Shown here one piece after another: positions 4,974-6,272 of a stretch of DNA of 8,406 nucleotides (positions are counted from its first letter, which is position 1; each line of letters starts with the position of its first letter). Under the pieces are notes generated by a model. That model did not search any database and had not been told where the DNA came from. It saw only the letters and a program-made list of their open reading frames with translations. This DNA comes from a virus (lineage: Duplodnaviria > Heunggongvirae > Uroviricota > Caudoviricetes): IMG/VR virus record IMGVR_UViG_2534681934_000006; one strand, written 5' to 3'. Made by a program: the position numbers and the translations under genes.

Positions 4974-6272
4974 TCTCCCGCATATTGCCAGCATGGCTTT
5001 TAATGAGCCGCTGATGCTTGAACCCGCCTATGCGCGGGTTTTCTTTTGTGCGCTTGCAGGCCAGCTTGGGATCAGCCGCCTGACGGATGCAGTATCCGGC
5101 GACAGCCTGACTGCCGGAGAGGCACCCGCGGCGCTGGCGTTATCCGGTGATGATGACGGACCACGACAGGCCCGGAGTTATCAGGTCATGAACGGCATCG
5201 CCGTGCTGCCGGTGTCCGGTACGCTGGTCAGCCGGACGCGGCGCTGCAGCCGTATTCGGGAATGACCGGTTACAACGGCATTATCGCCCGTCTGCAACAG
5301 GCTGCCAGCGATCCGATGGTGGACGGCATTCTGCTCGATATGGACACACCGGGCGGGATGGTGGCGGGAGCATTTGACTGTGCTGACATCATCGCCCGTG
5401 TGCGAGACATAAAACCGGTATGGGCGCTGGCCAACGACATGAACTGCAGTGCAGGTCAGCTGCTTGCCAGCGCCGCCTCCCGGCGTCTGGTCACGCAGAC
5501 CGCCCGGACAGGCTCCATCGGCGTCATGATGGCTCACAGTAATTACGGTGCTGCCCTGGAGAAACAGGGCGTGGAAATCACGCTGATTTACAGCGGCAGC
5601 CATAAGGTGGATGGCAACCCCTACAGCCATCTACCGGGTGATGTCCGGGAAACACTGCAGTCCCGGATGGATGCAACCCGCCGGATGTTTGCGCAGAAGG
5701 TGTCGGCATATACCGGCCTGTCCGTGCAGGCTGTGCTGGATACCGAGGCTGCAGTGTACAGCGGTCAGGAGGCCATTGATGCCGGACTGGCTGATGAACT
5801 TGTCAACAGCACCGATGCGATCACCGTTATGCGTGATGCACTGGATGCACGTAAATCCCGTCTCTCAGGAGGGCGAATGACCAAAGAGACTCAATCAACA
5901 ACTGTTTCAGCCACTGCTTCGCAGGCTGACGTTACTGGCGTGGTGCCAGCGACGGAGGGCGAAAACGCCAGCGCGGCGCAGCCGGACGTGAACGCGCAGA
6001 TCACCGCTGCGGTTGCGGCAGAAAACAGCCGCATTATGGGGATCCTCAACTGTGAGGAGGCTCACGGACGCGAAGAACAGGCCCGCGTGCTGGCAGAAAC
6101 CCCCGGTATGACCGTGGAAACGGCCCGCCGCATTCTGGCCGCAGCACCACAGAGTGCACAGGCGCGCAGTGATACTGCGCTGGATCGTCTGATGCAGGGG
6201 GCACCGGCACCGCTGGCTGCAGGTAACCCGGCATCTGATGCCGTTAACGATTTGCTGAACACACCAGTGTAA
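4954..6272 (+). pseudogene. C: Prohead protease gpC (S49-like serine protease), reading frame interrupted by an apparent 1-bp deletion near 5238-5242; N-terminal part 4954..5265 (premature TGA), remainder in another frame 5244..6272
   Basis: Seen in sequence: GTG at 4954 with GAGGAGG upstream encodes [32 protein letters not shown]..., the lambda gpC N-terminus, overlapping the B 3' end by 20 nt as in lambda. That frame ends ...LVSRTRRCSRIRE* at 5265. The lambda-like continuation (ALQPYSG)MTGYNGIIARLQQ... is in a different frame, open from 5154 to 6272. The two parts sum to about 439 aa, the lambda gpC length. Could instead be a sequencing error, so pseudogene status is uncertain. Confidence 0.6.
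5667..6272 (+). CDS. Nu3: Scaffolding protein gpNu3 (201 aa), in-frame internal start within the C 3' region
   Basis: ATG at 5667 (MDATRRMFAQKVSAYTGLSVQ...) in the same frame and with the same stop (TAA 6270-6272) as the C 3' portion; 606 nt, identical to lambda Nu3 length. Established knowledge: lambda Nu3 is nested in-frame in C. Confidence 0.85.
   Translation: MDATRRMFAQKVSAYTGLSVQAVLDTEAAVYSGQEAIDAGLADELVNSTDAITVMRDALDARKSRLSGGRMTKETQSTTVSATASQADVTGVVPATEGENASAAQPDVNAQITAAVAAENSRIMGILNCEEAHGREEQARVLAETPGMTVETARRILAAAPQSAQARSDTALDRLMQGAPAPLAAGNPASDAVNDLLNTPV

What the first reader, a model, noticed from the sequence alone, without database searches (positions are those of the whole stretch)
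5262..6272. Post-frameshift ORF begins with ATG overlapping the premature stop and keeps the whole protease core
The premature TGA (5263-5265) overlaps an ATG (5262-5264) in the ATGA arrangement typical of translational coupling. The 336-aa ORF from it (MTGYNGIIARLQQ...) contains GGMVAG and NCSAGQLLASAA, the latter placing a serine at the position equivalent to gpC Ser166, which I recall as the catalytic nucleophile. An N-terminally truncated (~95 aa shorter) protease plus intact Nu3 might therefore still be made by reinitiation. The ATG is native (Met104 of gpC), so the coupling geometry is a by-product of the deletion and function is speculative.
Basis: inference. Interest (0 to 1): 0.4.

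Follow-up and report, generated by a model that had tools for sequence, protein, structure and literature searches.

The report
Broken lambda head-protease gene, not new
This is the well-known head-protease/scaffold gene (C/Nu3) of a lambda-like E. coli prophage, split in two by the loss of a single G seen in no other public sequence; the ATG-over-TGA overlap is an automatic side effect and the leftover reading frame lacks part of the protease fold, so the finding is ordinary.

Summary
The sequence facts are correct. ATG 5262-5264 overlaps TGA 5263-5265. The 336-aa ORF (5262-6272) is gpC residues 104-439 and carries GGMVAG and NCSAGQLLASAA. It arises because one G is missing from a GGG run (window GG 5240-5241).

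The window is the whole 8,406-bp contig AIFO01000006.1 of a draft E. coli assembly. It is almost identical to O157:H7 lambda-like prophages. From 1763 to 8406 the missing G is the only difference from strain Gim1-1.

The deletion allele was found nowhere else: not in 1,327 matching complete E. coli records, in viral, metagenome or genome contigs, or by exact look-up of the 103-aa product. It is therefore either a base-calling/assembly error or a very recent inactivating mutation (my split about 55:45).

The ATGA geometry is not special. Any 1-nt deletion in a 72-nt stretch ends at this TGA.

The ORF does not keep the whole protease core:
- It lacks strand beta1 (residues 82-92).
- It lacks invariant A83 and G89 and near-invariant S102 and G103.
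- It lacks the conserved N-terminal region.

ATG 5262 has no usable Shine-Dalgarno sequence. Nu3 keeps its own strong start. Interest is low.

The parts
4941..4949 (+). Shine-Dalgarno sequence (GAGGAGGAG) of gene C, 4-5 nt before its GTG start
   Evidence: Duplex with the 16S 3' end is -12.0 kcal/mol at 5-nt spacing. The sequence is identical in lambda, phage 434 and the O157 prophage.
4954..5265 (+). 5' fragment of gene C: GTG start, 96 native codons (gpC 1-96), 7 out-of-frame codons (RCSRIRE), then TGA
   Evidence: Translation. It matches positions 1-91 of PHROG 53, head maturation protease. This exact 103-aa product is on record only on this contig.
5197..5229 (+). Codons for strand beta1 of the S49/ClpP-like fold (gpC residues 82-92, IAVLPVSGTLV). 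They sit on the upstream fragment and are absent from the 336-aa ORF
   Evidence: AlphaFold model E82-92 with block pLDDT 85-95. Aligns with KIAVLEVSGTI at the start of the B. subtilis SppA crystal chain. A83 and G89 are invariant in 52 diverse relatives.
5240..5241 (.). GG run where every relative examined has GGG: the site of the single-base loss that causes the frameshift
   Evidence: Alignments. It is the only difference private to the window against three O157:H7 prophage copies.
5262..5265 (+). ATGA: the native Met104 codon overlapping the first stop of the shifted frame
5262..6272 (+). 336-aa ORF, equal to gpC residues 104-439 (most of the S49 domain, the linker and the Nu3 scaffold part)
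   Evidence: PF01343 covers ORF residues 47-194. It matches PHROG 53 positions 98-442.
5448..5450 (+). Codon of Ser166 (AGT), the presumed nucleophile; residue 63 of the ORF
   Evidence: Invariant in 52/52 relatives. Aligns with the Ser of the B. subtilis SppA motif MAASGG.
5604..5606 (+). Codon of Lys218 (AAG), the presumed general base; residue 115 of the ORF
   Evidence: Invariant in 52/52 relatives. Aligns with the SppA position that is Ala in both crystal chains, which I infer to be K199A.
5867..5873 (+). Shine-Dalgarno sequence (AGGAGGG) of the internal scaffold start
   Evidence: -10.8 kcal/mol with the 16S 3' end. Sequence read.
5877..6272 (+). Nu3 scaffold ORF from Met309 (131 aa), in frame inside C and unaffected by the frameshift
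   Evidence: Full-length match to PHROG 8399, head scaffolding protein, positions 1-131 of 131. Met is kept at this column in 30/52 relatives.
5667..6272 (+). Alternative Nu3 start (Met239, 201 aa), equivalent to the lambda RefSeq annotation; also downstream of the frameshift
   Evidence: NC_001416 annotates nu3 at 5132-5737. PHROG 8940 positions 1-201 match. Met239 is not conserved, being Ile/Leu/Val in most relatives.

Best explanation
The 336-aa ORF is the 3' three-quarters of the nested head-protease/scaffold gene C/Nu3 of a lambda-like prophage of the E. coli O157:H7 type. It is cut off from its first 103 codons by the loss of one G from a GGG run (window 5240-5241).

The loss is private to this one 8.4-kb draft contig. 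It is therefore either a base-calling or consensus error in a contig that stands for a two-copy repeat, or a very recent inactivating mutation. I split these about 55:45, and the sequence alone cannot decide between them.

In neither case is the ATGA an evolved coupling signal. It is the first stop of the shifted frame, and that stop happens to sit on the native Met104 codon.

If the deletion is real, three things follow by inference:
1. Ribosomes translate the 103-aa fragment from the strong C start and terminate at 5265.
2. At most a small fraction reinitiates at 5262, because there is no usable Shine-Dalgarno sequence.
3. Any product lacks strand beta1 of the S49/ClpP-like fold, the conserved xPxSG half of the PYSGMTGY motif and the family-specific N-terminal region, so it is most likely misfolded or inactive.

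Nu3 is still made from its own Shine-Dalgarno sequence and ATG (5867-5873, 5877). A second prophage in the same kind of genome usually carries an identical intact C.

Shown here: the deletion, its privacy, the domain boundaries, the conservation and the lack of an SD. Inferred: low reinitiation and loss of activity.
For: Identity of the locus:
- The gene order is Nu1-A-W-B-C-D-E-FI-FII.
- The window is 99.8% identical to O157:H7 prophages.
- From 1763 to 8406 the only difference from strain Gim1-1 is the missing G.

Privacy of the deletion:
- With a 68-nt probe across the site, 0 of 1,327 matching complete E. coli records are exact; 1,325 fall in the 95-99% identity band and every row listed is 98.6% over 69 record bases, i.e. 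carries the extra G.
- The 28-52-nt deletion patterns have 0 matches in genome, viral and metagenome contigs. The intact pattern matches at least 120 viral contigs.
- The exact 103-aa product is on 1 contig only, the window itself.
- It is the only window-private difference against three O157 prophage copies.

Repeat context:
- O157:H7 MB9-1 carries two prophages with the same gpC, WP_000123254.1.
- Nearly all O157 genomes listed have 2 matching places.

The geometry is automatic: there is a 72-nt catchment, and 5 of the first 12 +1-frame stops are ATGA.

The core is not whole.

The N-terminus is part of the family: homologues at 38-62% identity align collinearly from their residue 2-12, with 978 representative clusters at E<=1e-10.

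There is no usable SD at 5262, and SD matters for reinitiation in E. coli (PMC6728339).
Against: - ATGA overlaps can support termination-reinitiation, and the SD requirement varies from pair to pair, so some product from 5262 cannot be excluded.
- The catalytic Ser166 and Lys218, invariant His195 and the whole Pfam S49 segment are retained, so residual activity is not formally excluded.
- I could not see reads or coverage, and I could not establish the sequencing platform. The split between error and mutation is therefore a judgement.
Confidence: 0.88

Rival explanations
1. The deletion is real, ribosomes finishing the 103-aa ORF reinitiate at the overlapping ATG, and the N-terminally truncated gpC(104-439) still works as the prohead protease. 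It would be targeted to proheads through its intact Nu3-identical C-terminus.
For: - The ATGA overlap is present.
- The upstream ORF has a strong SD, so many ribosomes arrive at the stop.
- Termination-reinitiation at ATGA is documented in E. coli.
- The Pfam S49 segment, Ser166, His195, Lys218 and the scaffold part are retained.
Against: - The ORF lacks beta1 (82-92), which belongs to the SppA-type domain in both the sequence and the structure comparisons.
- It lacks invariant A83 and G89 and near-invariant S102 and G103.
- It lacks an N-terminal region kept collinear in hundreds of representative clusters.
- There is no SD at a usable distance.
- The allele is private, so there is no sign of selection for it.
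Confidence: 0.07
2. A two-piece protease. The 103-aa fragment (native residues 1-96, carrying beta1) and the 336-aa fragment (104-439) are both made from the coupled ORFs and reassemble non-covalently. The break lies in a surface loop (93-103) between beta1 and the next element.
For: - In the AlphaFold model the break falls in a lower-confidence loop between E82-92 and E104-106/H107-119.
- SppA has a gap in the same place in the alignment.
- The ATGA overlap would give roughly linked synthesis.
Against: - Residues 97-103 (ALQPYSG) are lost from both pieces, and they include near-invariant S102 and G103 and well-conserved P100.
- The upstream piece gains a foreign basic tail, RCSRIRE.
- No relative is organised as two genes. 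The split copies seen are assorted frameshifts at different sites.
- The allele is private.
Confidence: 0.03
3. Recoding. A -1 ribosomal frameshift or transcriptional slippage between 5240 and 5263 restores full-length gpC at a low level.
For: The downstream frame is -1 relative to the upstream frame, which is the usual direction of programmed frameshifting (coordinates).
Against: - There is no X XXY YYZ heptamer anywhere in the upstream ORF, and no homopolymer of 4 or more between 5200 and 5270.
- All relatives encode the protein in one frame.
Confidence: 0.01

Closest known systems
Bacteriophage lambda gene C / Nu3 (head maturation protease with a nested scaffold; NC_001416 4418-5737 and 5132-5737)
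   Same: - Same gene, same neighbours (B upstream, D downstream) and same GTG start with the same SD.
- About 97-98% nucleotide identity to lambda.
- The closest intact relatives are O157:H7 prophage copies, identical apart from one base.
   Different: One G of the GGG run at codons 96-97 is missing, so the gene reads as a 103-aa ORF plus a 336-aa ORF.
Signal peptide peptidase A (SppA, peptidase family S49) of Bacillus subtilis, PDB 3RST / 4KWB
   Same: - The fold and the Ser/Lys positions match.
- phmmer gives E=1.5e-21 over gpC 81-298.
- Foldseek gives a target-normalised TM-score of 0.84-0.87 over 223-226 columns.
   Different: - gpC adds a family-specific N-terminal region (1-76) and a C-terminal scaffold part.
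- SppA is membrane-anchored.
- The 336-aa ORF corresponds to an SppA that lacks its first strand and the loop after it.
Other frameshifted or truncated gpC copies in public E. coli assemblies (for example P0012, P0033, P0036, P0040, P0098 and P0110, the last with 155 member sequences)
   Same: They are the same kind of object: N-terminal gpC fragments ending in out-of-frame tails. P0040 appears to stop at the same TGA over Met104 and is also 103 aa.
   Different: The breaks are at different positions and in different lineages. None has the window's GG allele.
Translationally coupled gene pairs with an ATGA overlap (termination-reinitiation; Huber et al. 2019, PMC6728339)
   Same: It has the same 4-nt stop/start overlap.
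   Different: - There is no SD in the upstream ORF at a working distance.
- The arrangement is not conserved in any relative.
- The two ORFs are halves of one protein, not two genes.

Membership tests
Peptidase family S49 / lambda gpC-type prohead protease | Significant match to the Pfam Peptidase_S49 model (PF01343) above its gathering score | tested here: met
   The 336-aa ORF scores E=2.4e-43, 148.2 bits against a cut-off of 24.9, over residues 47-194.
Peptidase family S49 / lambda gpC-type prohead protease | Complete SppA-type (ClpP/crotonase-like) domain, including its first strand | tested here: not met
   - TIGR00706 covers model positions 2-204 in intact gpC (residues 82-294) but only 20-204 in the ORF.
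- The SppA crystal chain aligns from gpC residue 81.
- The model places beta1 at 82-92.
- Foldseek aligns 223-226 columns, nearly the whole SppA chain.
Peptidase family S49 / lambda gpC-type prohead protease | Catalytic Ser and Lys present | tested here: met
   Ser166 and Lys218 are invariant in 52/52 relatives and are retained as ORF residues 63 and 115. Their catalytic role was not tested here. It rests on my recollection of SppA Ser147/Lys199 and of Medina et al. 2010.
Peptidase family S49 / lambda gpC-type prohead protease | Family-specific conserved N-terminal region (residues about 6-76) and the PYSGMTGY motif | tested here: not met
   - Diverse homologues align collinearly from their residue 2-12.
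- P19, Y76, S102 and G103 are near-invariant.
- All of these lie upstream of Met104, and residues 97-103 are lost from both ORFs.
Peptidase family S49 / lambda gpC-type prohead protease | C-terminal scaffold (Nu3) part nested in frame, with its own start | tested here: met
   ATG 5877 has the SD AGGAGGG. PHROG 8399 positions 1-131 of 131 match.
Peptidase family S49 / lambda gpC-type prohead protease | Proteolytic activity in proheads (cleavage of gpB, removal of Nu3) | not testable with these tools
   This needs biochemistry or genetics.
Translationally coupled gene pair (termination-reinitiation) | Stop and start codons overlap (ATGA or TGATG) | tested here: met
   ATGA lies at 5262-5265.
Translationally coupled gene pair (termination-reinitiation) | SD motif inside the upstream gene at a working distance (usual, not universal, in E. 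coli) | tested here: not met
   The best duplex is -3.4 kcal/mol at spacing 0, against -9 to -12 at 3-5 nt for C, Nu3, FI and FII.
Translationally coupled gene pair (termination-reinitiation) | The arrangement is conserved among relatives | tested here: not met
   All relatives have a single 439-aa ORF. The GG allele is found nowhere else.
Translationally coupled gene pair (termination-reinitiation) | Downstream translation depends on upstream translation | not testable with these tools
   This needs reporter fusions or ribosome profiling.
Programmed -1 ribosomal frameshift | Slippery heptamer X XXY YYZ in the overlap, conserved among relatives | tested here: not met
   No heptamer occurs in 4954-5265, and relatives are in one frame.

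The most novel reading that the evidence does not exclude
The deletion is genuine, and the prophage still matures heads in one of two ways. Either the truncated gpC(104-439) is made by SD-independent reinitiation at the ATGA, or the two coupled ORFs reassemble into a split protease. The second case would show that the first strand of an S49/ClpP-like fold can be supplied in trans.
Probability: 0.05. Interest if true: 0.35.

Novelty: already known. Interest (0 to 1): 0.07.

Why it matters
It matters little. If the deletion is an error, the locus is an intact, textbook lambda-type C/Nu3 gene. If it is real, this is one more decaying prophage gene in a genome type that usually carries a second, identical intact copy.

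The practical lessons concern annotation:
- A single missing base in a draft contig creates two database 'proteins'.
- Contig breaks at a neighbouring SNP (5261) create many look-alike 336-aa and 103-aa entries that are not frameshift alleles.

Only the unlikely case of a functional truncated or two-piece protease would be of modest interest, for protein engineering and for understanding phage protease assembly.

Tried and rejected
1. Recurrence of the 336-aa protein. An exact look-up found 20 contigs, but 19 of them simply begin at ATG 5262. Assemblies break at the A/G SNP at 5261. I rejected this as evidence for the allele.
2. Programmed frameshift or slippage. There is no slippery heptamer and no homopolymer of 4 or more. 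Rejected.
3. First AlphaFold run, on a shallow alignment of relatives at 74% identity or more. It gave mean pLDDT 41 and was unusable. It was replaced by the run on 52 diverse relatives, mean pLDDT 83.6.
4. Identifying the source strain and platform. Searches for AIFO00000000, AIFO01 and GCA_000249455 found nothing, and Hazen et al. 2012 (PMC3370608) is not held. My recollection that AIFO belongs to the DEC draft-genome series (possibly an O157:H7 DEC4 strain) is unverified and is not used as evidence.
5. Reading Medina et al. 2010 for Ser166 and for N-terminal requirements. The paper is not held, and keyword searches were unproductive. The Ser166 assignment therefore rests on family invariance, the SppA alignment and memory.
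6. The large 359-aa cluster P0179 as a natural N-terminally short form. Its representative sits in an assembly with many broken phage genes. Rejected.
7. My own recollection that lambda C starts with ATG was wrong. Lambda, phage 434 and the window all have GTG.

Full report
**What is in the sequence.**
The window is a lambda-type head-gene block:
- Nu1, 727-1272
- A, 1247-3172
- W, 3169-3375
- B, 3372-4973
- C, from GTG 4954
- D, 6282-6614
- E, 6670-7695
- FI, 7737-8135
- the start of FII

An exact cos sequence, GGGCGGCGACCT, lies at 538-549.

The reading frame from GTG 4954 runs for 103 codons and stops at TGA 5263-5265. ATG 5262-5264 overlaps that stop and opens a 336-codon frame to 6272. 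Its product begins MTGYNGIIARLQQ and contains GGMVAG and NCSAGQLLASAA.

**Cause of the split.**
I aligned the window with lambda, phage 434 and an O157:H7 prophage. All three have CGCGGGCGC where the window has CGCGGCGC, so one G of a GGG run is missing at window 5240-5241. The upstream product is native gpC 1-96 plus seven foreign residues, RCSRIRE. The downstream ORF is native gpC 104-439. Residues 97-103 (ALQPYSG) are encoded by neither.

**Where the window comes from, and how common the allele is.**
An exact-protein look-up shows that the window is the whole 8,406-bp contig AIFO01000006.1 of draft assembly GCA_000249455.2. It is 99.8% identical to lambda-like prophages of E. coli O157:H7. 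Against strain Gim1-1 there are 12 substitutions between 406 and 1762. From 1763 to 8406 the missing G is the only difference.

I looked for the deletion allele in several ways:
- A 68-nt probe across the site matched 1,327 records of complete E. coli genomes. None matched exactly: 1,325 fall in the 95-99% identity band, and every listed row is 98.6% over 69 record bases, i.e. has the extra G.
- Exact patterns of 28-52 nt for the GG allele gave no match in the genome, viral or metagenome contig collections.
- The exact 103-aa frameshift product is on record on one contig only, the window itself.

The 336-aa product is on 20 contigs, but this is misleading. The other 19 contigs start at base 5262, because assemblies break at the A/G polymorphism at 5261, so their first codon happens to be Met104.

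O157:H7 genomes normally carry two prophages with this head module. In strain MB9-1 both encode the identical gpC, WP_000123254.1 (two places per record). The window resembles one MB9-1 copy at 303-1762 and the other, or Gim1-1, from 1837 onward. The missing G is the only difference private to the window.

Taken together, the contig is short and repeat-bounded, it is probably two-copy, and its single private change is a one-base loss in a GC-rich G run. That fits a consensus error at least as well as a very recent mutation. I could not obtain reads, coverage or the sequencing platform. I put the split at about 55:45 and mark it as a judgement.

**Is the ATGA more than chance?**
No. In the intact gene the +1 frame is open from nt 239 to the TGA at nt 311-313. 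Any single-base deletion in those 72 nt therefore terminates on the Met104 codon. Five of the first twelve +1-frame stops in the gene are ATGA at an in-frame Met. An unrelated frameshifted copy, P0040, is also 103 aa and appears to end at the same stop.

**Does the ORF keep the whole protease core?**
No. The evidence is as follows.
- The Pfam S49 model covers only residues 150-297 of gpC, so it is fully retained.
- That model is shorter than the fold. The NCBIfam SppA-domain model covers residues 82-294 of intact gpC (model positions 2-204) but only model positions 20-204 in the ORF.
- The B. subtilis SppA crystal chains align from gpC residue 81, GIAVLPVSGT against KIAVLEVSGT.
- An AlphaFold model built on 52 diverse relatives (mean pLDDT 83.6) has strands at 77-79 and 82-92, a loop at 93-103, then E104-106, H107-119, E125-135, H140-150 and E156-165, with Ser166 at the head of helix 167-173.
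- Foldseek matches the model to SppA with a target-normalised TM-score of 0.84-0.87 over 223-226 columns, which is almost the entire SppA chain.

The ORF thus starts after the first strand of the domain.

Conservation points the same way:
- Among the 52 relatives (30-75% identical), A83 and G89 are invariant. P19, Y76, L91, S102 and G103 are 90% or more conserved.
- The beta1 segment is more conserved than the rest of the domain, with a mean top-residue frequency of 0.65 against 0.57.
- A search of 1.84 billion representatives with intact residues 1-151 found 978 clusters at E<=1e-10.
- Full-length relatives of 415-475 aa at 38-62% identity align collinearly from their own residue 2-12.
- PHROG 53 (head maturation protease) is likewise split: positions 1-91 on the 103-aa ORF and 98-442 on the 336-aa ORF.

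What the ORF does keep is Ser166, His195 and Lys218, all invariant in 52/52, plus the scaffold part.

**Would it be translated?**
The C start has a strong Shine-Dalgarno sequence (-12.0 kcal/mol, 5-nt spacing), so ribosomes do reach the TGA. Upstream of ATG 5262 the best pairing is GGGA directly abutting the ATG (-3.4 kcal/mol, spacing 0), which is not a working geometry.

Huber et al. tested five E. coli gene pairs (PMC6728339). Without the SD, reinitiation was lost in one pair, fell by 60-90% in three, and was unaffected only in a pair that was not coupled at all. Some reinitiation cannot be excluded, but it should be inefficient. This is inference.

There is no slippery heptamer or long homopolymer that could restore the frame.

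**Nu3.**
The scaffold start at ATG 5877 has AGGAGGG three bases upstream and gives a 131-aa product that matches PHROG 8399 end to end. The lambda RefSeq start (Met239, window 5667) is also downstream of the break.

**Mechanism and verdict.**
The most likely account (0.88) is that the ORF is a passive by-product of a private single-G loss and not a functional truncated protease.
- If the loss is an error, the gene is an ordinary intact C/Nu3.
- If it is real, the prophage makes the 103-aa fragment, Nu3, and at most traces of a protein that lacks a core strand and conserved N-terminal elements. Head maturation would then depend on the sibling prophage's identical C gene. Gene C is essential in lambda (PMC10695390).

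The functional readings are given 0.07 (truncated protease), 0.03 (two-piece protease) and 0.01 (recoding).

**Comparison with what is known.**
By sequence and context the locus is lambda C/Nu3. The intact protein is a member of the S49/SppA fold family. The 336-aa ORF on its own fails two tested defining features, the complete domain and the family N-terminal region. Frameshifted gpC fragments are common in public assemblies. Nothing here is new. Interest 0.07.

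Noticed in passing
window 5261-5262; loci L005-L013: Many public contigs begin at exactly ATG 5262 (19 of the 20 contigs carrying the 336-aa product). Many 'partial' 103-aa N-terminal gpC entries also exist (P0018 and P0019, with 139 and 135 members); I take them to end at G103. The likely reason is that assemblies break at the A/G SNP at 5261, which differs between co-resident lambdoid prophages. These entries mimic the frameshift products in protein databases but are contig-edge artefacts.
   Followed up: partly
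window 303-2518: There is a mosaic pattern relative to the two prophages of O157:H7 MB9-1. The window equals copy L015 at 303-1762, apart from position 406, and equals copy L016 and Gim1-1 (L003) from 1990 onward. Positions 1837 and 1840 match Gim1-1 only. This means either gene conversion between sibling prophages or a chimeric consensus of a collapsed repeat.
   Followed up: partly
window 1-302: The left end of the contig does not align with the prophages that match the rest of the window. It does match other loci at 99.5%, present 5-7 times per O157 genome and unannotated there. The contig therefore appears to end in a multi-copy repeat.
   Followed up: no
window 5667 and 5877 (gpC Met239 and Met309): Lambda RefSeq annotates Nu3 from Met239 (201 aa). 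Met239 is not conserved, being Ile/Leu/Val in most of 52 relatives. Met309 is kept in 30/52 and has a strong AGGAGGG Shine-Dalgarno sequence. PHROGs holds both a 131-aa and a 201-aa scaffold family. The conserved internal start looks like Met309.
   Followed up: partly
window 5535-5537 (gpC His195): His195 is invariant in 52/52 diverse gpC-type proteases, alongside Ser166 and Lys218. B. subtilis SppA has Ser at the aligned position. This may be a family-specific catalytic or structural residue.
   Followed up: no
proteins P0110, P0098, P0040, P0012, P0033, P0036: Many independent frameshifted N-terminal gpC fragments sit on megabase-sized contigs. One of them, P0110, stands for 155 member sequences, so pseudogenisation or mis-sequencing of this GC-rich stretch of gene C is frequent.
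   Followed up: partly
window 1247-3172: The public gene call for terminase A on this contig is only 408 aa (1946-3172). Yet the full 641-aa ORF from GTG 1247 is open and matches the 641-aa annotation in O157 genomes. This looks like a start-codon miscall, not a defect.
   Followed up: no
window 538-549: An exact lambda cos sequence, GGGCGGCGACCT, lies 189 nt before Nu1. The contig therefore spans the joined cos site, as expected for an integrated prophage.
   Followed up: yes
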